Shown here piece after piece: positions 7,352 to 58,888 of a DNA stretch of 64,000 nucleotides. The DNA is taken from positions 107,944,001-108,008,000 of the forward strand of contig NC_058368.1 of assembly GCF_018350175.1 (NCBI RefSeq), in the 5' to 3' direction. Made by a program: the position numbers and the translations under genes. Below the pieces are notes generated by a model. That model made no database searches. It had not been told where the DNA came from and saw only the letters and a list, made by a program, of their open reading frames with translations. Origin of the DNA: Felis catus (Eukaryota). Numbering within the stretch: the stretch's first letter is position 1; each line of letters begins with the position of its first letter.

Positions 7352-9943
7352 TATAGTTATACCTTTAAAATGATCGGTATACATTCCAAACTTAGAGATT
7401 TTCCCCCCCAAGGTTTTGGTGACCGTGATTCACAGGTAAAACTTCAGCTAATGGTTACCCAGCATCCAAAAATCATATGAAAACCTCACCGCAGGGTCTG
7501 TTCAAACTGATGGTCTGGACACATCGTCAATACAGGCACACTGACTGCCTCAAGGATTTCTACCTCATCCACAGTGACTACTTTTGATACCCAAATGGGC
7601 CTGACCTGCTGGTTCCTACTAAGCATCCAGCCTTAGTATCTCCTTCATCCCCCTGACCAACTCAGCTCCATCTGACCACACTGATACTGGGAAAAAGTTG
7701 AGGCTGAGGTTGGTCACAATTTCCATCTTCTCTCTTCTTGTAGTGATAAGAAAGTATGCTTCTCACTTAATTATTCCAGGCTCTGAACACAAAACCATTC
7801 AGGAACCACATTAAAAACAATGCCCAATTTTCTTTCTTTTTTCTTTTGTCTTTATTTTATTTTGTTTTTTAAATAAAGGCTACTGCTTACGCGACTCTGA
7901 CCAGTAGTGACTGGCTTGAGACATGAATATAATTCAGGGTATTTATGTATTTGATCTTTTAGAAGTCAATCTGGGAAGTTATGCAAAGTAAAGCATCACA
8001 AAGATGTCTCCTGTTTTAAGCTGAACAGTGCCCCCAGTATGCAAACTGTACATTTTAATAGAATCCCCTTCTATAATTTGGTGTTAATAATAGAAAAGTA
8101 TGTGAAACCATGTCAAAATTTTAATGATTGGGCTCAAGTGTGATGTCTTAAAGGAATTTTGTTGCGAGCTGTGTTGATAATGAAATATATTAATGTACTT
8201 GTTTGACTAATAACTGTATTGATCACTAGTATGGTATAATTTCTAGTTAGTATGGGTGGCTCAGGGAAACCAACGTGAGTAACATTTCCCTCTTGTTTTC
8301 TGCATCATCTCTTCATTTCTTTGTTATAGAAGGAATTATAGGATACCCAGTACACCTTTGTCAGCCTCACCTGTGGAACAGTGACTGCTTTTCATGTAAC
8401 ATGTTTGATGTTACGTTTAACAAGTTTGACAAATTTTAGCTGTGACAGTTGTGGCTTTATGATTCTATAAAATGCAAGGTCATTGTAAAAGGAAAGATAA
8501 CCTGCCCTCTCTGACAAAGAACAGGCAAACATTTTTTGTAGAGATTCTCTTTTCCTTTTTCTTTTTCTGAGTGGGAATGAAAAAGAAACCACCTGAACAG
8601 GTACCGTTCATATTATGCCTGCCACCATTAATCTGCTTGCTCTCAAACTGAGGTGTGGGCATGCATATATTGTTTGAGTATAAGAACCAATATCACCTAG
8701 TTGAGTACTACTTTTCACAAAATGCAGAGATAAAATGACTTGTCTCCGTTACTGCTTTCCTAGACAAAAGCATAAACACATGCAATAAATATTCAGTATT
8801 GACCTTCACGAAAAACCTCTATGAATTAATGCCTCATATAGATGCTCTGAATTTAAAGATCCGGTGATTTATGGTAACACAAAAATACTAGACTCTGTTT
8901 AAACATTAGAAAGTCGTTTATCAATTCTATTATACTTATTTTTCTTTCCCATCCTTAGAACAAATAACTTAGTGTCATATTCTTATTCTGGCTTCTCTGT
9001 GATAGGATTTGTAGGGCATCTACTTTTATTTCCACACATAGCAAGACTGTCTCTCACAGGGAATGAGACTTAAGCATGTCAAAAGTATTTTCTTTGAAGT
9101 TTTGGTGACAAACACTGTAATAGAAATTCGGTTACTATGATAAGGATAACAGATGCTTTCTAGTTGACGACTCTGATATATTAATAGGTAAATGAATTGT
9201 GATTTGGAATACATTGACTTAAATCAGCTATAAATTTGACTTCTGCTTGCTCTGCCACAACATATTATTTTCAAATAGTGTAAATGACTAAGAACAACTA
9301 AAAGTTTAAAAGGACTTAATATTATGCAGTGTCAAGAAAAAAAAGAGCATGCTTAATGGCACATTAATTAATGCGGAATTCAGATTGAATTCTATGAGTT
9401 ATAAATGCATCAGGGACTGAGTTTTAATCTTTGCACCCACAAGGAATAACATAAATTAATGATAGAGCAGAGAACGCTGTCAACTGTGTTATTCTATCTT
9501 ATAGGAAAGCAGCTGCTTATGAAAAGATTTCTCTGCAGGCCAAGTGGAACTCATAATTGACAGCAAAAGGTAGAAACGAAGACAGTGTCATAAGCTTTAT
9601 GGAAGCATTCCAGAACTCTAAATTAGAAAAATCTTTCCTTCCACACTTCCACCCCAAGGAAGCCTATTCAACCCTGATTTTTGTGTCTGAAGTTCACTAA
9701 TAGAAGAGTGCTGAAAAAAAAAGATGGAACTTTAGACAGTAAGTCATTTCTTTAGTGGAGAATACACATGTGCATGCACAGGCAAACAGAAACCCTCACG
9801 GAGGTATACCTTTGACAGCTTTCTTTCAGGGCCATTGTGAGAAATTCTGACTTTTAGGACCCACTGTAAGGTCAGGCCCTTTCCACAAAACAAACTCACT
9901 GATATCAGTTGTCCTGACTTCTTGTATAGGGTCCCCTCAACTC

Positions 9944-10336: not shown

Positions 10337-12424
10337 CATGGTCCCATCAGCAATTAAAGCTTGGTAAACTGGCAAGGCATCTCTTCTATCTGTGCTCAGA
10401 TTTCTGGATTGTAATTTGTCATCCTCTTCTCATTTCTCCACTCTCTTTGTATTTTCTCTGAAAAACTTCCTTGCCCCTGACCTGACATAGGCTCATCCCC
10501 TCTGATTCCTCATTATCATAGAACCTGTGCCTCTGGCCAGGTGTCTGTACTCTGCTCTGTGTGTTTATATCTGATGCGGAGGGCTTCCTGTCCTCTGGAG
10601 TCTCTTGCTCCCTTGAACAAATTTTTCAGGCTTAGTTTGAAGTTAACCCTAATTACCCAAAAGTATATCTAGGAAGGAGAAGCAACTAATGTGACAATGA
10701 ATGCTTGTGGGGGAAGATGTGCAAATTCACTTGGAAATGTTAGGCAAATGTCAGCGTATTATTCCAAGCTAAAATGCAAATATAGCCCATCTTGGTTTTA
10801 CCTTACCAGTTACTAAACCCACGTGAAATTATTGGCACGTGAATGGATTTTCTGTCAGGTATTTCCCTGCTTCCATGAAATAATCTAGGTCATTAAATCT
10901 TTCAATAAATGTTTGTGGGTCACTTACACAGGTTAAATAAGGAGAGTTATAGGCTTTTCTTACACTACACAAACTGCATGCAGATACAGACATGATTGGT
11001 GGTGTAGATGTTCCCAAACGGTTCCCTTATGAATCAGGACAGAGATGGGCATTTGAACTTTGAAATAGAAAAGAACACATCTCACATTCAACCATCATCT
11101 TTCACTGGTTCAAATGTGGGGATTCGTATGTTTAGCACTTTGTAAATATAAAACCAAAGTAAGAGAAAAAAGTCTTAATAGAGAGGAAAATGTATATTCA
11201 ATTTTAAAGAAGTATTTGCCCCCAGTAAGTTGGCTGTTTTTCACTCTGTAACAAATGTATATAGTTTAAGGAGATTTCCCAATTTAAACTCACCACATAA
11301 ACTTGGAAAATATCAGAGAAACTGATTATTCCTGGAACATATCCCAGGATATTACTTACTAACAGCTTCCTAGGAAAATTCATTTTGATTTAGGCCTAAA
11401 CCCTGGATCAGATACTTTCAAAGGCTATGAATATATGCATTATTTACCAGGGTAGGGCTTTTTAGAAGTTTTTCATATATAAAATGGCCCATCCTTCATA
11501 CATAAACCTGGACTAAAACTAAACCTGCAGGGTATTCATGACAATTCATGCAAAGTGAGAATTATGCAGAAAAGTGCACCCTTGCATACTAACAATGGAA
11601 AACACTGTCCTTACCTAAGTCCCTGCTCACTTGTTAAGACAGTCAGCCTTCAGCTTCAAGAAACTCAGCATGCTTATTAAGCATCTGCATCTCCTGTCCC
11701 TGAAAGAAAGCTTTACTTTCCTGGTCGACCTCTCCCTCTTCCCTTCAAAGTCTTCACTCCACTTGATTACCTTCCCTTCTTTTCCTTGGAATGTCACAGT
11801 CTCTTCTGCCTCTACGTTTTTCTCAGACCAGATGGAACGTTTCGTCATGAAAGGACCTGAGTATATTCTCCCTCTACCACAAAGTTTTGGCAGATCATCA
11901 CAGAGCACCCTCCCTCAGCTGCCTGTGTTGGCTCTTGTGGTCTCCATCACTTTCTAGACCTTTACCATGAATGCCTACGTATCATGAGTTTTTGTTTTGG
12001 TTTGGTTTTTTTGTTTTTGTTGTTTTGCATTCGTTTTTCTCTCCATTCAGATGGCAAACTTTATGAAGCAGACAATGACCCTGATTTTTTGGATTCCCCG
12101 CCTTCTGTTGTCGTACTGCTCTAGAGTTCAGCTGACTTTTTTTTTTTAAGCAAGACTTTCTCAATGAAGAAAGGATCAACACACTAACAAATACTGGGAT
12201 AGGGATTCTGTGTATATATGAGGATAACAGATTCCTTCTAATTGACAATTCTCTTGTGTTCATGGGAAAATGAATTGTGATTCATTCGATTTACTTCCCA
12301 GCACAAGCTTCTTACCTCATGTTGAACTGGTAACGAATGGTTCAGATGTGCTATTTGAGCAGCACTGGTCACATCACACGTATTTTGTGCATTGCTCTGT
12401 ATAAACTTTACATTCTTGAAAGTA

Positions 12425-36070: not shown

Positions 36071-38329
36071 TGGACTTTCCGTCGATTTCTTTCTTATATA
36101 TGATTTACTGGTGATTTGTGATTTGCTGACTTGATAAGTATTAACAGAAAGAGAACAGATTTTTCATATTCTGGCACCCAAACTGTGTCTCCTGTTTTTC
36201 CCCAAACCAAAGAAACAGCTTCACAGTTTTGATAAATCAGATGGAATGCTACCCAGAAATGCAAAATCATATGAGCACATAAGCACAAGGAGTTTGGCAA
36301 TAATGTATGACAAGGCAAAGTTAAAAAAAGAAAAGAAGCCCATCACACACTTACTATTTGCCTAAAACCAGTTTTCTATATCCTTTAGTACAGAATCAAT
36401 ATAGAGTTATATGAAAACTCTAGCAGCAAATATCATACTGAGTTTCAGGCAAATCCACTGTCATGAGATCTGGACTTATAAAGTGAGAGTCATTATTTTT
36501 TGTCCTGGAGGAAAAAAAAAAAAAAAGAAAAGTCCCCAAAATCTATATCCATCAGATAAGTTTAGAATTGGTCTTTGCCTTCTTTCTTCCTACCACATTT
36601 ATTTCTTTTAGGAATATGTAAATCATGAAATTTGTGTTAGTAACTTCAAGTTGAAAGCAACTAACTTATGACTAAGACTTAACCTTATAACCCCTGGACC
36701 TTTTAAATAAATCCCAATCTACATTGTGAAAATGCATTTACTCATTCCTCCTATAGATAAAGAACAGAAATGAGTATAGTGGCTTTCCCTACCCTTTTAC
36801 TGTGTAGGATTTTACTGTCTTTATACATCCAGATTTTTGTGGTCACTCACACCAGGCTTTGGCATACACTAAGAGCTAAGCACAGTCCCCGAGCCATAGC
36901 TATAACCGAAGCCCTTCCTCCAGCCTGATTCCAACACATTAGAGGGCTAGGATACTTCTGTGGAGGGCTGCTGATCTAGGTGATAGAGATAAACATATAA
37001 ATAATTATCTTGAAGTGTTAAAAGTTCAAGGACATTGTAACCAAAACCAATAGTGTCTCCCACTCCAGCCTACTAAGGAGTATCTGGCATGTCCCTCCTC
37101 TCCCTGTCATCCCAGTCCTATTATGCAGAAACACATAATAAATGAGGGTGAGGAAGTAAGGCATCTGATAGAGAACTAATGCATGGAATCATCTGTGGGG
37201 CTGTCAGAGTGATAGAGAAGGAAGAGAATGAGAACATGGCTAGTTTAAACAGTGGTCCTGTGAATTTTGAATTGGATCTCCCTTCATGTTCTTTGAGAGC
37301 CATAGGCAAAGGTTCAAATTAATTTTAATTACTTCTGTCTGATTCATCACTTCTTTGAATGTGGCAGCATGCTGAGATTGGTCAACATGGAGCATTTGGA
37401 TTCACTCAGATTATAAGAGTACTCCATATGGAAAGTATAGGACATGATGAGGAGAATTGGTTGAGAGGAAAAGTCCAGAGGTGTAAGGCAGGTTTGCAGG
37501 CATGACCAGTAGCAGAAGCAAAGAACATGAAGATAGGACTCAGCTTCATGGTTCATGGCTCAGGCCAGACACAGAGAAAGAGACGGCAGAATAATGAGTT
37601 TCAAGCCCAGCACGATCAGGCACAGTTCTTTTCCCCACCTTCTCTTTAGAAAATACATATGTGAGTGTACGTGTTCTGAGGACAGTCCAGCCTTAGCAAG
37701 AAGCAAAGCCACCTAGAAAATGGGACAGTGGCACTGTTAAATATAGGCGAGACTAACCTATGCAGATTTGATGACCCTAATGTTTTAACTAAAGCATTTG
37801 TAAGCCTGACAGGATAATGTAAGATTTTATTTTTCTTTTGGAGAAATAACCACCCTCAGTAAAATAACAAAAACTTTTCTTGGTCTCATTGATGAAGTAA
37901 GAAGAAGCAAGAATTCTGTCTCTAGAGGAGTTCTAAAACTGCGAAAACAGGATCCCGGGCGTCTGTCCCAGCTTCATTTTATGGCACTAGGAGACTAAGA
38001 AAATCTTCTTCCTCCTCTCTTTGGCTCATTTCACCAGCGCTGAGCCTTTCTGAAAGCCAACCCTTTCTACTTTTGTCCAATAATACTGCTTTATGCTCAG
38101 CTGACAAATTAAGGCCATTTTTTTCCCCTCCTTGGGATTTTTTTTTTTTGCTGCAGGTTCCCTATAATTTTAAAATTACATTCTTCTGGGTTGCGGGGGG
38201 TGGGGGTGGGAATTATATTATATCCTTCTAACTCACATTTATCTTTCATTTTCATGAGACAACATTTACTCGCACTTTACTCCACACCCATTTACACAAG
38301 CCAAAAACCTTGTCTCTCTCTTCTATTGC

Positions 38330-38960: not shown

Positions 38961-39229
38961 CTGAAAAGGGATCACTTGGAACACAGAAAGGCAGTTTTAT
39001 CACAGGCTCAAAGCCGCAGTTCACAGTCCCCAGAGATGATCAGTAGCTCGTCAGAGTGATGGCTTAAAGTTGTCCTTTGTCTTTCAGGAACAAAATCTAG
39101 GCGGACAGTCTTTGACACGAAGTTCGATTTGGCTCTTTTTCAAGTCTACTATATCATTTTCACACACTCTTGTTCCTTGCTCATATTTTCAAGTCCCATT
39201 TTTTTGAAAACTTTTTTAGGGGGTGCACA

Positions 39230-39507
39230 AAGGTGCTTTTATTATAGGGAGAGCACCCGTGGGCAGAAATAGCTGCACTGGGCTTGTGAGAAGTAACTGA
39301 TTATATAATTTTTAGCGGCAGTTAGGGATAACTTAAATCTCTAAGGAATGTGTGCATGTTAAAAGCAAGGTCTCCAAGCCTTTGGAGGGCTAGCTATTGT
39401 TAAGATAAGATTGCTTTTAGTCTTTAATGAAACATCAATAATAAGGCAGCCGTGATTTAAAAAGCTTCTAATAAAAATATATCTTGTCTCCTGTACCTGC
39501 TGTAGCA
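39230..39507 (-). mobile_element. Carnivore ERV LTR fragment
   Basis: gggcagaaatagctgcactggg...tgattatata...ggagggctagctattg. Confidence 0.5.
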
Positions 39508-39524
39508 ATAAAGATAGATGCTCT

Positions 39525-40240
39525 CGGTCACCAGGATTGGGCAGTTTTTCAGGCTAAACAATTCCCAGGATCTTCTTTCAATTTGTTTTTGGCTTCTGTA
39601 GATTCTTTACCTTCTTGCCATCTCGGCACCTAGTTAATATGATGGTTGTTATGTATTATTAAGAGCTTATTATTTAGCTTTTGTAGTCTTTTCATTAGCT
39701 GAATCCTTCGAATATCTAAGTGACAGGCTTGCCTTCCGTTTATCCCTAAACCAGACCCAGAATTTCCTGATTGTAGGACACACACATGACACAGGCTGAG
39801 GCAATCTTAGTCTCCAGTTTCTCTGGGCCAGTGATTGGTCCAGAAGGAGCATATGCCCCAAGTGGAGACAGAGACTTTCCCTGGGATTTTTCTAACCAGG
39901 GCCAGTAGGGGAGAGAGATTTCTTCCTTTCCTTGGTTTTGAGCAGCGAGGATGTAGGAAATCAGAATTTCCAGCACTGGTTTTTTCCACTGACATGGGAC
40001 AAAAGCCTGTTTGCTATAGGAGAGATTGAAGGCAAGCAGAGATCAGCAAAGATTTGAAATGGGTTGAAAAAGAGTGATAGAAAAGAGAACACTTTTGAAG
40101 TGTCAGGCTTCCAGTTCTAATTGCTAAGATCTTTGGAGCTTCATGAGTTCCTGGACTCCTTCCTTTGATTCTGTGACAAATCTAAATGTCCTTCTAATAA
40201 ATTCCTTGGTATGCTTAATTTAGTTTAAGTTGGATTTCTA
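39525..40240 (+). repeat. Left arm of inverted duplication (LTR33/LTR16-like ERVL LTR plus flank)
   Basis: Reverse-complement match to 48775-49485; 52-bp exact block 39909-39960 = 49067-49118. Confidence 0.9.
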
Positions 40241-40509
40241 GTACATTTAGCCAACTCCTTCTAATAAAGTATCATTTTTTGTTGCTCTGAATATATGTAA
40301 TATTGTAAACACTCAGTATTTTTACTGATACTCACAGAATGTTTTTTGTTCTTTTGTTATCTGAAGACCACTGTCTCTTTCAAATGGAATACTGACTGGC
40401 CACACTGCTATAGCATTACAGCATGGAATGTGGTCACACCATTGAGGTAGCTGAAAATGATATGGGAGTTATTTATTCACCCTGGCCTAAACCAGCACCT
40501 GGCTTTTGT

Positions 40510-40708
40510 TTTTCTTAAAGATTTTTAAAATATTTATTTATTTTTGGTAAAGTGCAAATGGCAGAGGGGCATAGAGAGAGAAACAGAGGATCTGAAGCAG
40601 GCTCTGTGCTGACAGGCTTACAGCAGCGAGCCTAATGTGAAGCTCAAACTCACAAACCATGAGATCCTGACCTGAGCCACTCAACCGACTGAGCCACTCA
40701 GGTGCCCC
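40510..40708 (-). mobile_element. CanSINE
   Basis: Antisense SINE. Confidence 0.9.
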
Positions 40709-40709
40709 T

Positions 40710-40813
40710 AAAGATTTTATCTTTAAGTAATCTCTATACCCAACTTGGGGCTCAAACTTACAACCCTGAGATCAAGAGTCACATGCTCTGACAACTGAGC
40801 CAACCAGGTGCAC
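40710..40813 (-). mobile_element. Short older CanSINE
   Basis: taagtaatctctatacccaacttggggctcaaacttacaaccctgagatcaagagtc. Confidence 0.85.
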
Positions 40814-40885
40814 CAGCACTCTATTTTTTTTAAATGAAAATAATGGGATGGCAAAGTTCCTACAAAATCAATGGTGGTAGAGTTT

Positions 40886-41038
40886 GTATCAGTCAGCATT
40901 CAATCAGTAGACAGAGACCACAGAGTAATTAAATAGGAAATTTTTAATACAATTATTAACTTGTAACAGGAGATTATAGCAACAGGGAATTGCCTACTAA
41001 GGGAGAGAACTTTAAAAATACAGCAGTAGCAGATATAA
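40886..41038. mobile_element. Old ERVL-type LTR terminal fragment
   Basis: tgtatcagtcagcattcaatcag...accacagagtaatt; truncated by L1. Confidence 0.45.
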
Positions 41039-41053
41039 GGATTCAAGACTTGT

Positions 41054-41268
41054 GGAGCGCCTGGGTGTCTCAGTCGGTTAAGATCTAACTCTCGGTTTCG
41101 GCTTAGGTCATGATCTTGCGATTTCATGAGTTCAAGCCCCACATCAGGCTTGTACTAGTAGTGTGGAGCCTACTTGGGATTCTCTCTCTCCCTCTCTCTG
41201 CCCCTCCCCCACTCACAATGTCTCTGTCTCTCTCAAACTAAATAAATAAACTTAAAAAGAAAAAAAAA
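41054..41268 (+). mobile_element. CanSINE
   Basis: TSD aagggattcaagacttg. Confidence 0.95.
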
Positions 41269-41761
41269 GGATTCAAGACTTGAATGTAAGACCTGAAACC
41301 ATAAAACTCCAAGAAGAAAACATAGAGGATAAGCTCCTTGACATTGGACTTGCATTGATGTTTTGGGTTTGACCCCATAGGCAAAAGCAACAAAAACAAA
41401 AATAAGTAAGTAAGACTACATCAAATTTAAAAGTTTCTGCACAGCAAAAAAAAAAAAAATTAACAAAATAAATAGTCTCAAAGAGATATATGCACCTCCT
41501 TGCTCATTGCAGCATTATTTACAATAGCCAACACATGGAAAGAGCCTTAGTGTCCCTTGACAGATGAATGGATGGATAGAAAATGTGGCATATATATATA
41601 CAGTGAAATATTATTCAGCCAAAAAAAAGGGTGTGTGTGTGGGGGGGGAATCCTGTCATTTGCAATTACAGGTTGGACCTTGAGGGCATTATGCTAAGTG
41701 AAACAAGTCAGATTGAGACAGACAGACAAGTACTGTATGATCTCACTCATATGTGTAATCT

Positions 41762-41852
41762 AAAAAAGAAGAAGAAGGAGGAGGAGGAGAAGGAGAAGGA
41801 GAAGAAGAAGGAGGAGGAGGAGGAGGAGGAGGAAGAGGGGGAGGAGGAGGAA
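41762..41852. repeat. Polypurine (GAA/GGA)n tract
   Basis: aagaagaagaaggaggaggag... Confidence 0.9.
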
Positions 41853-41854
41853 AG

Positions 41855-42040
41855 ACTGGGAGGCTCAGTTAAGCATCTGATCTCATGGTTTATGAGATCG
41901 AGCCCCAAGTGGAGCTCTGTGCTGACAGCACAAAGCCTGCTTGAGATTCTCTCTCTCTCCCTCTCTCTCTGCCCCTCCCCTGCACTCTCACTCACTCCCT
42001 CACTTATAAATAAACATTTAATTTAATTTATTTAAAAACA
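41855..42040 (+). mobile_element. CanSINE (degenerate head)
   Basis: SINE body, CT tract, A tail. Confidence 0.85.
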
Positions 42041-42049
42041 AGAAGAAGT

Positions 42050-42280
42050 GGGGCGCCTGGGTGGCTCAGTCAGTTGGGCGGCCGACTTCGGCTCAGGTCA
42101 TGATCTCACGGTCCGTGGGTTCGAGCCCTACGTCGGGCTCTGTGCTGACAGCTCAGAGCCTGGAGCCTGTTTCGGATTCTGTGTCTCCCTCTCTCTGACC
42201 CTGCCCCGTTCATGCTCTGTCTCTCTCTGTCTCAAAAATAAATAAACGTTAGAAAAATTTTTTTGAAAAAAAAATAAAAA
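42050..42280 (+). mobile_element. Young felid SINE
   Basis: CpG-rich; TSD aaaaacaagaagaag. Confidence 0.95.
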
Positions 42281-43249
42281 CAAGAAGAAGGAAAAGAAAA
42301 AGCAATTAGATTTGCAGTTACAAGAGATAGAGGGAAGGGGAGGAAGAATTGGATCAAGATAGTCAAAAGCTACAAACTTCTAGTTGCAAGTAGGAAGAAT
42401 ATAATGTACAATATGAGGAGAGTAAATCCTAGGAGTTCTCATCACATGGGAAAAAAACATGTTCTTTCTTTTCCCCTTTTTTTGTATCTCTATGAGATAA
42501 TGGATGTTAACTAAATTTATTATAATAATCATTTTACAATATAGTCCTATACTGTATGCCTTAAATTATTACAATGTTATATGTCAATTACATCTCAATA
42601 AAACTGGAAAAAAAAGAGTAGTTAAAATGATTTTTTCTAAGACTCAGGGGGACTTGAGGCTACTTAGAAACTTTGTTTGCAATTTCGGGATATATACATA
42701 TATGTCAGGAATGAAAGACAGATTTTTTTTAAAGGCCCAGCCAACCAAAATAAAACTCTAAACTGTAACACAGTATATGCCTAAGATGCCTTTTACTGAG
42801 AAAGTGTCTCCAAGAACATGTGAATATTATTGAATGGAGAGGAACTGGAAGGCCCACAGGATAAGGCAAGCAAGGCAGTATTGACCCAAGAAATAACACA
42901 AGGCTTGATTTGCAGGGGGTTACGCAAGGTTCTCAGTGGGCACCACAGGGAGAAAGGCTGGCTTGATCATCATGATGGAAAGGGGTTGAAATGAAAAAAG
43001 AAAAGAACCACTGAACAATTTGTGAGTGAAACAGTCTGACCATCAGTCTGGAAGGTGTTGGCTCTGTGAAATTGCTAGTTGGGTGAGGAATGGGGTTTTG
43101 CATAAGTCTAGCAACACATTTTGCATAAATGTCTGTATTTTACATAAACTCCTTTACAAGAGAATGCACTTCTGATCCTTGTAGAGAAAGAAAGGAACCG
43201 TAGAGCTGATGATCCTAAACAAGAACCCCAAATTTCCATCACTCTCAAT

Positions 43250-43464
43250 CAGTGGTTCTCATCCGGGGATGATTTTATTCCTGTGAAATTAATGGAAATG
43301 TCTGGAGGTATTTTTGGTTACCACAAATGGAGAAGGAGTGATACTGGCATCTAGTGGGAAGAGGCCAGAGATGCTGCTAAATATCCTATAATTCATAGGA
43401 CACCTGCAACAACATAGCATTATCTGGACCCAGATGTCAATAATGCCAAGCTTGAGAAACCCCA
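43250..43464 (+). mobile_element. MER20 (hAT-Charlie MITE)
   Basis: cagtggttctca...ctggcatctagtggg...gatgctgctaaatatccta...ttgagaaaccc. Confidence 0.9.
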
Positions 43465-43683
43465 CTTCAAATAACCTATTTGAGGAAGTGATTATTTATT
43501 TACTTTTCCTGATAGTTTATATAGCTTAAGCTAATTGCATTGGAACCCAACTGCTTAAACTTGGGAAAGAAATGAAAAATATATTTTATGCTATCCTTCA
43601 AATCTGTGGGAGAGCAAATTGTCCTGTAATAGAATTTTACTGCATTAAGCTTTGTTGCAGTCCATAAAGGCTAACCAACTGGT

Positions 43684-43685
<2 letters not shown>

Positions 43686-43748
<63 letters not shown>
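43686..43748. repeat. Compound (TG)n(AG)n microsatellite
   Basis: Seen directly. Confidence 0.95.
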
Positions 43749-43753
<5 letters not shown>

Positions 43754-44917
43754 TGAGGTTAATAGTACAAAAATATTGCATGAAAAAACAATTTGAGGTT
43801 TCATAATTTGTTGTGGGTAAGTTATGGCTTGGATGATAAATCTGATAATTTTGGTTTGATTGTCTTAACATTTCTTAGAGCCCATGACAGGTCAGGATAA
43901 TATTTCCAAGGAAGCCTAAAATTAATAAAATTTATTCCTTGAATTACAAGGTCTTTGGTTTTTGTTTTCCTTCTTCTTTTCAAGTATGGAACTAGGATAT
44001 TTTTTTCCCAGTGCACATGCTCAAGTCTCCTTCTTTGATGGGTAATTTTCACCTCAAAAACATCAAAAGGTTTTCCCACCCCGTCTACAACCAGAAAATT
44101 TGTAACCTATGTTTTCAGAGACTTTGAAATATAAACTACATCCAGCTGTAAGAGCAGCATAGAAATGGGTTGATTACAGTTTGAAAAATCAAGCTAGACC
44201 AACACAATCTCTGGCCAAGAAATTTATTTGATTCAACCATCCCATTGGTATCATGAGCTATTAAAAAATGAAGAGTCTCCCTGGCTGCAGAGTAAGTATA
44301 CTGATTCCCCACTTCCTTCAATTTCTGGAGACTTCTCAGAAATGTAAATGCACAGAGGAAGAAAATATAATAAATGTGTTCCCTTGGTGAGAGTGAAGGA
44401 AAAGTTCAGCAATAAATAACTCAGTGAGTTCATTGTAAATTCTTGAAACCTCTCTTCCAGCATCATATTCTTTTAAATGCAAACTCAAAGCAAAAAAAAA
44501 AAAAGAAAAAAGTTCATCTCAGGTTTGTCTTTTATGACAGCACTGTGGGAGGATTAATAAATGTTGTGAGATTTTTCCTGAAGAATAAAGGCACTTTACA
44601 CAGTGAATAAAAATAGTTTAAAAGATACAAATACCATTTGGTCAACATAAGTTTTGAATTTCCCCTAAGGTGAGTAGAGAGATAAAGGAGACAGCTAGGG
44701 TGACTAGTTAGTTGTTTAATTGTATTATTCCCCAAACATGAATGGCAGTTCAAGGGATCAGTTTTCACTATTAACTGACACTATACTTTCTCAATCTTCA
44801 CCCTCCCCATTTCTAATATCTTCTCCCCTCTAACGAACTTGATGCTTGAGAAGTAAACCTGGGAAAGCTTGCCACAGCTATTCACATATATTCTGCACCT
44901 AGATTTTTGAGGTGTAC

Positions 44918-45685
44918 TGTCGTGGACTCTGGGTCTGGAGTTCTCTCTTGTCCAGTAAGAGAGCGGGATGCAGGATTAAAAATGTGAGGGAGGCTAATGT
45001 CCGGGGGGAGACAAGAGCCCCGAGTAAAGGTCCTTGCTCTGTTTTCGTTAGGATCAGAAGGCTTACAAATGTGGTGATGGGCATGCACAAAGAGACAATG
45101 AAATCATGAACATTAACTCATGGGCGTGAGGAAAAGGGGGTTTTGAGGATATGCAGTGTTAGGGGTTTGGGTTAATACAAAACAAAATCCTGGCACCAGG
45201 CAGAAGGTTGTTTACAGCAGATGGAGGCACAACCTCTATTTACCTAAACTGGTCTAGGGAACAAAGACAGAGCATGCTACCTCAGGTTCAACAAGGCACC
45301 TTTCTTTTGCTAATTAGCTCCTCTCTGGACAGCTTCACCCCACAGCCCTATTTACCTGTTTACCCAATTTGGTCCTTCCTTGCTGTGAAAGCAGTTTTCT
45401 GCTATTGTACTAAGTTGGGGGCTGTTTCCTTCCTGAATACCTAATCTTATTTACCTCATCTTGGATGTTTTCATCCTGAGATTCCATATTCCTATACCTT
45501 TGTCCTATACAGGGACCTTGCCCCACTTTGCCTATAACTGGGGGACTTTGCCCCATTTACCTAATCTTATTTACCTACTCTTGTTTACCAAAACTTGGGT
45601 GTGTGCATCCTATGGTTTTCTAATTCTTTATGCCTTGTTAACCCATCTGTGCAAGCTCAGGGAATTCCTAAGCTTATTCCCCACA
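44918..45685 (-). mobile_element. Class II (betaretrovirus-like, ERV2) solo LTR
   Basis: TG...CA ends; minus strand starts TGTGGGGAATAAG; perfect 6-bp TSD gtgtac at 44912-44917 and 45686-45691. Confidence 0.85.
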
Positions 45686-46469
45686 GTGTACAGCACAGAG
45701 AAGGTTTCAGAACCACTGGTCCACATGATGGTTGTGCCCTGTGCTCTGTGTCCTGGGATCCTTGTGAACATTACCATCTCTACTGAACCTCTGTGTCAGA
45801 TAGAATAAGGCTTACTAGTTGATACTGTGTGATTTAAGCCTGTAGTCTTAAATGAAGGACCCCTGGAGCTGTTTTCTTCTTTTATTTTCTTTATCATTTT
45901 TTGTCATTAAAACCTACCTAAAACTCTCTTTGGCCTCAGGGAACTTGTACTTACTTATCTTGGGATGCAGCTGCAGCTGATCTCTAATTGTCTATATTTT
46001 CTCCTTCAGAATATTTACTAACATGTACCATTTAAACTTCTATATAAACCTTCCCAGGATATTTTTAAGCACATACCTCATTTACTTGGGAATTATTCCA
46101 AATTCTATAGAACCCAGTAAGATCTGCTAGTGTATGACTTAGGTTGGTCTTAGAGCTGAAAGCCTCAATTATCTAAAACATCTTTGAAGCTCCAATATAC
46201 TGTTTTATTGTATATCTGTCTCTTCTTTAATCTTTCTTGAAATTGATATATCTGGATTCATTAACTTTTTCCCACTCAGGAGAAAAATGAATTAGATAAA
46301 GTTGGAGAAGGAGTGACTGAGTGATATAAGCAAGGTGAATAGAACCCATATAGACAACTGAGACTTTTTTATATACATATATATATTTTTTCTTTCCATT
46401 GAGATTATTTTTAATGAGCAAACACTTGACAAGCATATAGTGAGTCCACAGGGTATGTAGACATATTTT

Positions 46470-46820
46470 TTCTTTCAATATAATCCATATGCCATAAAAT
46501 CCACCTTTTTAAAGTATACTGTTCAGGGGCACCTGAATGGCTCGGTAGGTTAAACTTCTGACTTCAGCTCAGGTCATGATTTCACAGTTCATGAGTTCAA
46601 GGCCTGTGTCGGGGTCTGTGCTGACAGCTCAGAGCTGCTTCGGATTCTGTGTCTCCCTCTCTCTCTTCCCCTCACCTGCTCACACTCTGTCTCTCTCAAA
46701 AATAAATAAACATTAAAATTTTTTTTTAAATAAAGTATACCATTCAGTAGTTTTCTAGCATATTTGCAAGGATGTGCACCATCACAACTATTTAATTCTG
46801 AAACATTTCATCATCTTAGA
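46470..46820 (-). mobile_element. L1MB-like 3' end fragment with nested SINE
   Basis: ccataaaatccaccttttt...cattcagtagttttctagcatatt... Confidence 0.7.
46527..46730 (+). mobile_element. CanSINE
   Basis: TSD aaagtatac. Confidence 0.95.
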
Positions 46821-46876
46821 TCTATTTTTGACCTTAAAAACTACTTTTGATTTGTAATGGCTTAAGAGGGACATAG

Positions 46877-47637
46877 TGTGGTAGGCAAAATAATACACAC
46901 ATACACACCCCCAAAGTCTACATCCTAATCCCCAGAGCCTGTGAATATGTTAGGTTGTGTGGAAAAGGAAGATTATGATTGCAAATGAAATTGAGGTTGA
47001 TAATCAGCTGACCTTGAAATGGGGAGATTATTCCAGATTATCTATGTGGGCCCATTGTAAATCACAAGTGTCCTTAAAAGTGAAACAAGGAAGGGGCGGC
47101 TGGGTGGCGCAGTCGGTTGAGCGTCCGACTTCAGCCAGGTCATGATCTCGCGGTCCGTGAGTTCGAGCCCCGCGTCGGGCTCTGGGCTGATGGCTCGGAG
47201 CCTGGAGCCTGTTTCCGATTCTGTGTCTCCCTCTCTCTCTGCCCCTCCCTCGTTCATGCTCTGTCTCTCTCTGTCCCAAAAATAAATTAAAAAAAAAAAA
47301 AAAAAACGTTGAAAAAAAAAGTGAAACAAGGAATCAGAAGAGTCTTTGTCAAAGTCAGAGAAGGAGATTTGATGAGGGAAGCAGAGGTCAAAATATTGCA
47401 GTTGCTGATATGCAGGTGACTAGAGATGTCAGGAGCCAAGGAATGCAGGTGACCTGTAGAAGGTGGAAAAGGCAGGCTCCCTTAGAGCCTCTAGAAGGAA
47501 TGCAGCCTTGTTAACATGTTGATTTTAGTACAGGAAAACCCATTTTCAACTTCTGACCTGTAAGATAAAGCTTTTGTGTTGTTTTAAGCCACTATATATG
47601 TGCTAATTTCTTACATCATCAATGGGAAACTAATACA
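46877..47637 (+). mobile_element. MaLR LTR (MLT1D-like) with nested SINE
   Basis: tgtggtaggc...atcctaatccccagagcctgtgaatatg...aatcagctgacctt...ggaaactaataca. Confidence 0.85.
47093..47320 (+). mobile_element. Young felid SINE
   Basis: CpG-rich, long A tail; TSD aaaagtgaaacaaggaa. Confidence 0.95.
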
Positions 47638-48166
47638 AATGGGGAAGGACAGTAGCTGGGAGAGTGAAGGAAGGAGGAAGAGAAAAAGACAGAGAGGCAC
47701 CATTAGGTACTGTTTCCATGTCCGATCCTTTTGATAATGCCCCAGGCTGATCAAGTGTCATCTCACTTGATCCTGTTGGTCCTTGAAAGAATGATTGAGA
47801 GTAGAGGCACTTTCCTCATATGCTCATAGATCCTTTGATGTGTTTTGCTTGGTTAGAGTTCGGGAGCTCCGTTAATGGTGATGTAAATGGACTTGAATCT
47901 TGACTGGTCTTGAGAGTTTACTGAGTCTTTCAGGGAGCTGTTGGGAAGTTGAGCTTGTTCATGATGAAGAACAAAGAGCCGCACATCTCCACTCCCCACC
48001 TGTCAACTTCAGTTCAGGTAAAGCTAACTTCGCAAGAGAAACCCCTTGACATCAAGTGGTAAGTAACTTGATTATAGTGCTGACTCTGTTTTGCCTATCA
48101 GCTGTTTAAAACTTCAAATCTGACAGACTTTAAAAGTGGAACACGTATACTAATGTATGTAATGTG

Positions 48167-48167
<1 letters not shown>

Positions 48168-48216
<49 letters not shown>
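48168..48216. repeat. (CT)n microsatellite
   Basis: Seen directly. Confidence 0.95.
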
Positions 48217-48217
<1 letters not shown>

Positions 48218-48774
48218 TTTTTTCGAGACAATGTTAAAAGGTTTTATAAAATCTGGTGTTAGTTTTTTTTCTAAAAGAAAAAATTAAATTATTCTTGAAA
48301 TTAATTTTTCACATTCACTTTCTAAAATATGTTAAATATTCAATCATGCTTCAAGATATCAAGTCTGCCAGAATTTTGCCAATGACTGGAAATGCAACAG
48401 AAAATGTAAGAAAGCAAATTCCTCCTAAATGTTAATTTGAATTTATAGCTGGTGAAGGCTCTGGATCGACAGGTTAGGGGCTGCAGGTTTAATTTTGTCT
48501 TTGATGTCATGGGAAAGATAGCCTCATCTCAGCTACCTTTGATTTAGCTTCTGAATCATGTGCCCTGTGCAGAGTTCATAACTAGATACTCTGATCCTGA
48601 ATCTCTAGCCCGAGAGCTATGCTGCTGAGTAGTTTTGCTTTGATATTAGAAGAGGTAACACATGATTGTTTTCAAAAACTGCCAGTCTCCAACAAGGTCA
48701 CACTGATAAAAATGTGGCTATAAAGCTGTCTCCTGAGTATCCCACAGTGCCTAGGCCCTGAGTCCCATAGGATA

Positions 48775-49485
48775 TCCACCCAACTGAATTAAGGAATTTG
48801 TAGGAAGGGTATTGAAATTCGTCACAGAATCAAAGGGAGGGTTATGGGGATTCATACAGCTCCAAGGATCTCAGCAATGGGAACTGGAAACCTGATACTT
48901 CCAAAGTAGTCTTCCACCCCGCACCTCCCACCCCCACCCCCACCCCCTGTCACTCTTTTTCAACCCATCTCTAATGCTTGCTGATCTCTGCTTGCCTTCA
49001 ACCTCTCCTATAGCAGACATACCTTTGCCCCATGGCAGGGGTAAAAATGAGTGCTGGAAATTCTGGTTTCCTACATCCTCGCTGCTCAAAACCAAGGAAA
49101 GGAAGAAATCTCTCTCCCATATTGGCTTTGGTTAGAAAAATCCCGGGGAATGTCTCTGATTGTCTCCACTTGGGGCACATGCTCCGCCTGAACCAATCAC
49201 TGACCCAGAGAAATTGGAAACTAAGATTGCCTCAGCCTGTGTCATGTGTCCATCCCATGATCAGGAGATTCTGTGTCTATCACAAGGATAAATGGAGAGT
49301 AACCATGTTGGTTAGATGTTCTAAGACTCTCCCAATGAATTTACTAAAAAAGCTAAATAATACTAACAGTCACCATATTGAATGAGTTGCTGAGACTGCA
49401 AGAAAGTAAGGAATCTGTAGAAGCCAAAAAGAAAGATAGAATCCTGGAGGTGATTAACCCTGAAAGACTCTGTGCAACCCTGGAC
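48775..49485 (-). repeat. Right arm of inverted duplication
   Basis: Reverse complement of 39525-40240; carries an extra C-rich insert at ~48915-48946. Confidence 0.9.
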
Positions 49486-49539
49486 AGAACTAGAACTTCA
49501 AGGTGTATCTTCAAACAAGCATACAAAGTGAAGGAAACA

Positions 49540-49878
49540 GAAGATTGAAGCAATCTAGGCTAGCAGCATCAGAGCTGTTATCAAACCTCAAAAGGGTGAG
49601 GGGAGGGAAAGAACCCCAGAGAAGAAACAGTCATAAAAGAGTAGGCCACATCAAGAGAAGCAAGGGTCTTCATTGAGGAACATAGGTCTTACAGGAAAGA
49701 ATCCAAGTGAATAATTAGCCTAACCTCACTCTCTTTCTCTGGTGTTCAGCTGAGTGTTGGTCAAACCCTGTTGAAGACACAGGGCATGGGAACCCTGTTG
49801 AAGTAATCCATTCAGATTAGCCATCTAGGATAGAGTATAAGGTGAATATGTATGAGCAAACAGAAGACATCCGGCACA
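49540..49878. mobile_element. Old ERVL/MaLR-type LTR fragment
   Basis: Ends gcaaacagaagacatccggcaca. Confidence 0.45.
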
Positions 49879-49884
49879 TGTACA

Positions 49885-58675: not shown

Positions 58676-58888
58676 ATTTTTTTTTCAACGTTTGTTTATT
58701 TTTGGGACAGAGAGAGACAGAGCATGAACGGGGGAGGGGCAGAGAGAGAGGGAGACACAGAATCGGAAACAGGCTCCAGGCTCTGAGCCATCGGCCCAGA
58801 GCCTGACGCAGGGCTCGAACTCACGGACCGCGAGATCGTGACCTGGTTGAAGTCGGACGCTTAACCGACTGCGCCATCCAGGCGCCCC
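58676..58888 (-). mobile_element. Young felid SINE inserted in tail of previous SINE
   Basis: CpG-rich; TSD taaagaatctttt. Confidence 0.95.

What the first reader, a model, noticed from the sequence alone, without database searches (positions are those of the whole stretch)
39525..49485. ~0.7 kb inverted duplication with a homogenised core flanking an ~8.5 kb segment (candidate gene-conversion or recurrent-inversion locus)
Seen: 39525-40240 is the reverse complement of ~48775-49485. The core (~39780-40080) is close to identical by eye and includes an exact 52-bp block (39909-39960 = 49067-49118), while the edges are visibly more diverged. Homology continues ~100 bp past the apparent start of the LTR33/16-like element (gcaagaaggtaaagaatctacagaagccaaaaa vs gcaagaaagtaaggaatctgtagaagccaaaaa), which favours a duplication over two independent LTR insertions. 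Established: inverted repeats can undergo arm-to-arm gene conversion and mediate recurrent inversion, as at FLNA-EMD. Inference: the identity gradient reflects conversion, and the enclosed segment (ERV2 LTR, MER20, candidate enhancer at 47.7-48.0 kb) may flip orientation. A transcript spanning both arms could also fold into long dsRNA.
Basis: partly seen in the sequence, partly recalled or inferred. Interest (0 to 1): 0.72.

Follow-up and report, generated by a model that had tools for sequence, protein, structure and literature searches.

The report
Old inverted duplicate with converted core
Two back-to-front copies of a 0.7-kb stretch of old retrovirus-like DNA lie 8.5 kb apart in a cat-family genome and are more alike in their middle 300 bases (90%) than at their edges (75%), likely the trace of an ancient copying accident followed by one old bout of copy-correction, an ordinary kind of event.

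Summary
The inverted pair is real (39531-40240 vs 48770-49484; 81.6% over 678 aligned columns). The middle is more alike than the edges (264/294 = 89.8% vs 289/385 = 75.1%; 0 of 500 permutations), but it is not near-identical, and the 52-bp run is not special within it (p = 0.05). Best reading: an old local inverted duplication of an LTR-like element plus about 115 bp of flank, then one old gene-conversion episode over about 300 bp. Two independent insertions, or selection on the core, remain possible: no repeat library, orthologue or read evidence was obtained. The FLNA-EMD-type recurrent-inversion claim is not supported. The arms fall short of the >90% identity over 654 bp or more of human NAHR inversions and of the ~200-bp perfect tract that efficient recombination needs. 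An ordinary inverted SINE pair in the same window is a better match (94.7%, also a 52-bp exact run). G-U asymmetry gives no sign of selection for dsRNA. Orientation polymorphism and editing are untested. Ordinary; interest 0.2.

The parts
39531..40240 (+). Left arm: ~115-bp shared extension followed by a decayed ERV3-class (MaLR/ERVL-type) LTR-like element; family name recalled, not tested
48770..49484 (-). Right arm, inverted copy of the left arm
39531..39649 (+). Shared outer extension (pairs with about 49366-49484), 89/115 = 77.4% identical; flank or a longer element end, unresolved
39782..40077 (+). High-identity core of the left arm (about 90%); start 95% interval 39754-39857, end 39956-40142
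48950..49249 (-). High-identity core of the right arm
39909..39960 (+). 52-bp exact block, reverse complement of 49067-49118
48917..48947 (-). G-rich run matching a G-quadruplex pattern; overlaps the 29 nt present only in the right arm, at the most likely inner edge of the core
39783..39805 (+). Decayed E-box plus CCAAT-like module, starts 18 nt apart, in the same decayed state in both arms (49248/49230 on the - strand)
   Evidence: module geometry from PMC12065363 passages
40241..48769 (.). Spacer of ~8.5 kb: SINEs, L1-like pieces, a solo LTR, a MITE-like element, microsatellites; no Rfam family in the spacer and no protein family above cut-off in the frames tested
44918..45685 (.). Solo LTR with TGT...ACA ends and a perfect 6-bp target-site duplication (6 bp fits ERV2; class rule recalled)

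Best explanation
The two arms are likely an old local inverted duplication of a decayed LTR-like element plus about 115 bp of its flank, whose middle ~300 bp was probably overwritten later from one arm onto the other by non-allelic gene conversion and has drifted apart again since. Shown: the pair, its orientation in this assembly, a flat plateau of ~90% between edges of ~75%, and no further homology outside the arms. Inferred: the duplication (a templated copy placed 8.5 kb away in reverse during repair or replication), its age (K 0.31, roughly 60-95 million years at a recalled 2e-9 per site per year per lineage), the conversion episode (K 0.11, roughly 20-40 million years), and that exchange has since largely stopped, so the spacer is unlikely to flip recurrently today. 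Which arm was the donor is unresolved.
For: One-tract model beats uniform divergence (permutations 0/500 and 0/2000; BF about 68). Divergence inside the tract is even: no nested tract, transitions and transversions both reduced. Tract length ~295 bp and 9.1-kb distance fit reported conversion tracts of a few hundred bp (PMC3961182, PMC4921805 passages) and raised conversion between copies within 10 kb (PMC6598467 passage). None of the 36 other repeat pairs with 100 or more aligned columns exceeds 0.85 in any 100-column window or 28 exact bases, against 0.94 and 52 for the arms. Pairs that I read as older-family remnants align at only 58-69%. Both arms carry the same decayed E-box/CCAAT module, as shared history after decay would give. 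The 115-column extension aligns far above shuffles.
Against: No outgroup sequence, so non-reciprocal transfer is not shown. Edge identity (75%) lies within the 66-81% range of independent L1-like fragments in this window, so it does not prove duplication by itself. The inner end of homology falls close to the apparent 3' end of the LTR (recalled architecture), as two independent insertions would give. Conversion is reported to be rare below ~80% identity (PMC3924818 passage), and by the edge and core distances the arms would already have been about 80-85% alike at the inferred time. The tract starts at the E-box module, which selection could also explain.
Confidence: 0.55

Rival explanations
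1. Two independent insertions of one ~0.7-kb LTR family landed in opposite orientation 8.5 kb apart, the 'flank' being part of the element, and one copy later converted the other's middle.
For: Homology ends near the apparent LTR 3' end in both arms (architecture recalled). Independent old L1-like pairs reach 66-81%. Earlier unchecked notes report converted tracts between independently inserted inverted L1s 10-11 kb apart in this genome.
Against: The element looks like an ancient ERV3-class LTR (recalled); pairs read as remnants of old families in this window align at only 58-69% or not at all. The same decayed motif state is in both arms, though this motif lies at the start of the core and so could come from the conversion.
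Confidence: 0.2
2. After duplication both cores were kept by purifying selection, as a pair of LTR-derived regulatory elements or an RNA duplex, with no conversion.
For: The plateau starts at the E-box/CCAAT module; MLT1K-type LTRs bind NF-Y and USF1/2 in human cells (PMC12065363 passages). An intact CCAAT box lies in both cores (39834, 49193).
Against: The forward E-box and CCAAT positions are decayed in both arms. Differences are spread evenly rather than around motif islands. No G-U strand asymmetry in the core (9 vs 11, p 0.82). A 4-bp indel lies inside the core.
Confidence: 0.12
3. The arms still exchange sequence and mediate recurrent flipping of the 8.5-kb spacer, as at FLNA-EMD.
For: Inverted arms 9 kb apart with a 52-bp exact block. 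Alu-mediated inversions do occur between copies of median 81.7% similarity (PMC9675761 passage), so a rare flip is possible.
Against: Human NAHR inversions have >90% identical repeats of 654 bp to 24.2 kb (PMC6748972); here it is 81.6% over 678 columns. The efficient segment is about 200 bp of perfect identity (PMC3924818); here it is 52. Palindromes kept by ongoing conversion diverge by <0.2% (PMC8327919); the core diverges by ~10%. A routine SINE pair in the window is 94.7% alike with the same 52-bp run.
Confidence: 0.07
4. A single duplication with uneven mutation rate or chance gives the apparent plateau; no conversion and no selection.
For: The Bayes factor is about 68, not overwhelming, and the tract end is loosely placed (39956-40142). 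The core is more G+C-rich than the edges (46-47% vs 37-40%).
Against: A 2.8-fold difference in distance (0.11 vs 0.31, bootstrap intervals 0.07-0.16 vs 0.25-0.39); 0 of 500 permutations reach the observed two-breakpoint statistic.
Confidence: 0.06

Closest known systems
Non-allelic gene conversion between transposable-element copies (review PMC6598467; LTR-LTR conversion PMC4921805; passages read)
   Same: A tract of a few hundred bases with reduced divergence between nearby repeat copies, less than 10 kb apart.
   Different: Here the event is old (10% re-diverged), the copies may come from a local duplication rather than two insertions, and no donor or outgroup is shown.
FLNA-EMD (HsInv0389, X palindrome P24) and other human NAHR inversions (PMC3961182, PMC6748972, PMC8327919; passages read)
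   Same: Inverted repeats flanking a spacer; likely arm-to-arm exchange at some time.
   Different: Those arms are >90% identical over 654 bp to 24 kb (X palindrome arms 8-140 kb, <0.2% divergent where conserved), with both orientations observed and often genes inside. Here the arms are 0.7 kb at 82%, no gene was found, and no second orientation is known.
TE-mediated inversions (Alu/L1 TEMRs, PMC9675761; passages read)
   Same: Oppositely oriented repeat copies of ~80% similarity a few kb apart can be inversion substrates.
   Different: No inversion has been shown here.
Local inverted (dispersed) duplications made by template switching (FoSTeS/MMBIR; mentioned in PMC6748972 passage, otherwise recalled)
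   Same: A sub-kilobase segment copied in reverse a few kb away.
   Different: The junctions are too old to show microhomology, and the direction of copying is unresolved.

Membership tests
NAHR-mediated recurrent inversion locus (FLNA-EMD/InvFEST type) | Inverted repeats >90% identical over 654 bp or more (range in PMC6748972) | tested here: not met
   81.6% over 678 columns; only a 294-column core at 89.8%
NAHR-mediated recurrent inversion locus (FLNA-EMD/InvFEST type) | Perfect identity near the ~200-bp minimal efficient segment (PMC3924818) | tested here: not met
   longest exact run 52 bp, next 30 bp
NAHR-mediated recurrent inversion locus (FLNA-EMD/InvFEST type) | Both spacer orientations seen within or between species | not tested
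   no reads or contigs were laid (one search gave none); no related genome held
Palindrome under ongoing concerted evolution | Arm-to-arm divergence far below between-species divergence (<0.2% in PMC8327919) | tested here: not met
   core K2P 0.11, edges 0.31; the youngest SINE pair in the window is closer, 0.056
Non-allelic gene-conversion tract | Contiguous tract with significantly lower divergence than its flanks | tested here: met
Non-allelic gene-conversion tract | Tract of a few hundred bp between nearby copies | tested here: met
   ~295 bp, 9.1 kb apart; literature
Non-allelic gene-conversion tract | Non-reciprocal transfer: arms cluster by species against an outgroup | not testable with these tools
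   no orthologue obtained
   no Dfam/Repbase library; PMC5753468 lists the names only
   E-box-like and CCAAT-like words start 18 nt apart in both arms, both off-consensus
   no clean ends or duplication seen by eye at the candidate boundaries printed
Long-range RNA duplex (editing or back-splicing substrate) | Substitutions biased towards G-U-compatible changes on one strand | tested here: not met
   core 9 vs 11 (p 0.82), edges 35 vs 25 (p 0.25); low power
Long-range RNA duplex (editing or back-splicing substrate) | One transcript spanning both arms, with A-to-I edits or back-splice joints | not tested
   no RNA reads were laid (one search gave none)

The most novel reading that the evidence does not exclude
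A 0.7-kb pair of arms built from a dead LTR has survived for 60-95 million years with its core held together in several mammalian lineages, by repeated conversion or by selection on a paired regulatory element, and lets the 8.5-kb spacer flip: a miniature, gene-free, probably autosomal counterpart of FLNA-EMD working far below the accepted identity and length thresholds.
Probability: 0.08. Interest if true: 0.6.

Novelty: new member of a known kind. Interest (0 to 1): 0.2.

Why it matters
On the best reading it is one more fossil of ectopic gene conversion, useful at most as a data point on how diverged two copies can be and still exchange sequence. If orthologues showed independent homogenisation or flipping in several lineages, it would lower the accepted length and identity limits for long-lived recurrent-inversion loci and give a small, testable model.

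Tried and rejected
Whole genome: none held. Earlier notes on this locus or look-alikes: none. Orthologues or other family copies in public contig sets: 0 hits in metagenome contigs, 0 in genome contigs, 1 in viral contigs, a chance 18-mer that aligns over no more than 32 columns; these sets are not mammalian, so the blanks mean nothing. No reads were laid. Homology beyond the arms: none in 4 of 5 outer and inner flank tests, the fifth marginal (142 vs shuffle maximum 137) between what I read as L2-like remnants. Assembly artefact: rejected, since the arms differ at 18% of sites plus indels. The two LTRs of one provirus: rejected, since they are inverted and share upstream sequence. Coding or structured RNA at 47.7-48.06 kb: folding z 0.29 and 0.59; 0 of 23 frames from the window reach a Pfam cut-off; no PDB match below E 0.25 for 2 frames. 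Rfam: only 2 tRNA-like SINE heads, outside the locus. GC-biased conversion: cannot be judged from two sequences. The G-rich insertion as the stop of the tract: fits the best boundary (40077) but the interval is wide, so it is a lead only.
Full report
Observation. A self-comparison of the window gives 39543-40207 against 49469-48791 as the best non-self hit (75.5% with gaps, E 2e-142). Looser scoring stretches it to 39508/49508 and finds no third copy of either arm. From the alignments I place the arms at 39531-40240 (+) and 48770-49484 (-), 81.6% identical over 678 aligned columns. The block 39909-39960 is the exact reverse complement of 49067-49118 and cannot be extended. The abundant SINEs are of the cat type (recalled). 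No genome is held. Earlier unchecked notes place RNF17, STOML3, COMMD6, LMO7 and TMED9 on the same piece, 15-107 Mb upstream, which points to an autosome, cat A1 (synteny recalled).

Shape of the similarity. The core (39785-40078) matches at 264 of 294 columns (89.8%, K2P 0.11, bootstrap 0.07-0.16), the edges at 289 of 385 (75.1%, K2P 0.31, 0.25-0.39). The step survives permutation: 0 of 500 for a two-breakpoint chi-square, 0 of 2000 for a Sawyer-type statistic and for the best 300-column window, with identical counts under three scoring schemes. A one-tract model is favoured over uniform divergence by a Bayes factor of about 68, with best boundaries 39782 and 40077; the end is loosely placed (39956-40142). 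The core is a plateau and is not 'close to identical': the 52-bp run has p = 0.053 within it and a nested younger tract is not favoured (log10 BF -0.45).

Controls from the same window. After masking SINEs, 39 other repeat pairs were found at E up to 1e-3; 3 had fewer than 100 aligned columns and were set aside. The other 36, which I read mostly as independent L1 fragments, are 66-81% identical, never exceed 0.85 in a 100-column window and share at most 28 exact bases; the arms reach 0.94 and 52. So the core is exceptional among old repeats, but the 75% of the edges is not. Pairs I read as MIR- or L2-like remnants align at 58-69%. Of 21 exact inverted matches of 30 bp or more in the window, 2 belong to the arms and 19 fall in SINE intervals. 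One young SINE pair (47093-47298 and 58677-58888, 11.5 kb apart) is 94.7% identical over 206 columns and has its own 52-bp exact run. As a substrate for recombination or RNA pairing, the arms are no better than routine SINE pairs.

What the arms are. They read as a decayed ERV3-class solo LTR whose 3' ends point inward, preceded by about 115 shared bases. I would call it MLT1K-like rather than LTR33/16, but both labels are recalled; no repeat library is held and PMC5753468 (one passage) lists names only. One feature can be tied to print: NF-Y/USF-bound MLT1K copies carry an E-box and a CCAAT box 16-18 bp apart (PMC12065363, passages). Both arms have an E-box-like and a CCAAT-like word starting 18 nt apart, off-consensus in the same way. 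The extension aligns at 89 of 115 columns (score 276 against a shuffle maximum of 90). No homology continues beyond the arms in 4 of 5 flank tests, and the fifth is marginal and lies in other old repeats. Whether the extension is flank or part of a longer element is the open point between duplication and two insertions. The inner end of homology falls near the apparent LTR end, which counts for two insertions.

Mechanism. The likeliest history is a local inverted duplication, then one conversion episode over about 300 bp, then renewed drift. At a recalled rate of 2e-9 per site per year per lineage the edges date to roughly 60-95 and the core to roughly 20-40 million years; these are rough. Reported tracts run to a few hundred bp (PMC3961182 and PMC4921805, passages) and conversion is raised between copies within 10 kb (PMC6598467, passage citing Aleshin and Zhi 2010); the cores are 9.1 kb apart. 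Against this, conversion is reported as rare below about 80% identity (PMC3924818, passages), and the arms would have been only about 80-85% alike by then. A G-quadruplex-type run (48917-48947) overlaps the 29 nt found only in the right arm, at the best inner boundary; it could have stopped or started the tract, but the boundary interval is too wide to say. Selection on the core is not excluded without orthologues, though the forward motif module is decayed and a 4-bp indel lies inside the core. Selection for an RNA duplex would skew transitions towards G-U pairs on one strand; the counts are 9 and 11 (p 0.82; low power).

Recurrent inversion. Human inversions made by NAHR have repeats more than 90% identical over 654 bp to 24.2 kb (PMC6748972, passages). 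Conserved X palindromes diverge by less than 0.2% between arms, and the FLNA-EMD repeats are reported in 15 more mammals (PMC8327919, passages citing Caceres 2007). The efficient segment in rodents is about 200 bp of perfect identity. This locus meets none of these. A rare flip is still possible, since Alu-mediated inversions form at a median 81.7% similarity (PMC9675761, passages). Orientation was not tested. One search listed 24 runs, 14 of them DNA or unlabelled contig sets of one organism from 6 studies holding 0.88-0.91 of the sampled words, which shows the sequence exists in other samples but not its arrangement. laid nothing, so orientation, transcription, editing and between-species differences stay open.

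Spacer. The solo LTR at 44918-45685 has TGT...ACA ends and a perfect 6-bp target duplication. At 47.7-48.06 kb there is no folding signal (z 0.29 and 0.59) and no protein match; enhancer activity cannot be judged with these tools. Rfam finds only two tRNA-like SINE heads elsewhere in the window.

Novelty. Eight literature searches (listings and abstract starts seen) showed no description of this locus, but it has no name to search by and subscription papers and supplements were not seen. The kind of event is well described. Earlier unchecked notes list cleaner cases in this genome: converted tracts of 1.55 and 5 kb between inverted L1s 10-11 kb apart, and a 370-bp inverted copy from 8 kb away. 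These are leads, not support. Verdict: real, old and ordinary; a new member of a known kind; interest 0.2.

Noticed in passing
window 47093-47298 and 58677-58888: Young inverted SINE pair 11.5 kb apart, 94.7% identical with a 52-bp exact run; the closest of 28 SINE pairs compared (K 0.056). Same young subfamily or a small conversion.
   Followed up: partly
window 9106-9220 and 12185-12296: Old direct duplication of ~110 bp, 3.1 kb apart, 75% identical (score 273 vs shuffle maximum 118); no third copy seen in the window.
   Followed up: partly
window 39200-39530: An LTR-like element (class recalled) abuts the outer end of the left arm; no homology resumes beyond it and no target duplication was found.
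   Followed up: partly
window 49500-49880: Another old LTR-like remnant (LTR16-type by recall) lies directly outside the right arm on the - strand; the shared extension may belong to it, which would make the right arm the source.
   Followed up: no
window 47740-48020: Non-repetitive stretch with a 9-bp perfect hairpin (about 47749-47772) and a splice-donor-like site at 48018 on the + strand, seen by eye; possible non-coding exon. No folding or protein signal.
   Followed up: partly
window 37880-38150: Non-repetitive stretch that looks by eye like a conserved non-coding element; its 101-aa frame has no Pfam match.
   Followed up: partly
window 41030-41282: SINE with a clean 14-bp target duplication inserted at the edge of an L1-like fragment (family D14).
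   Followed up: no
   Followed up: partly
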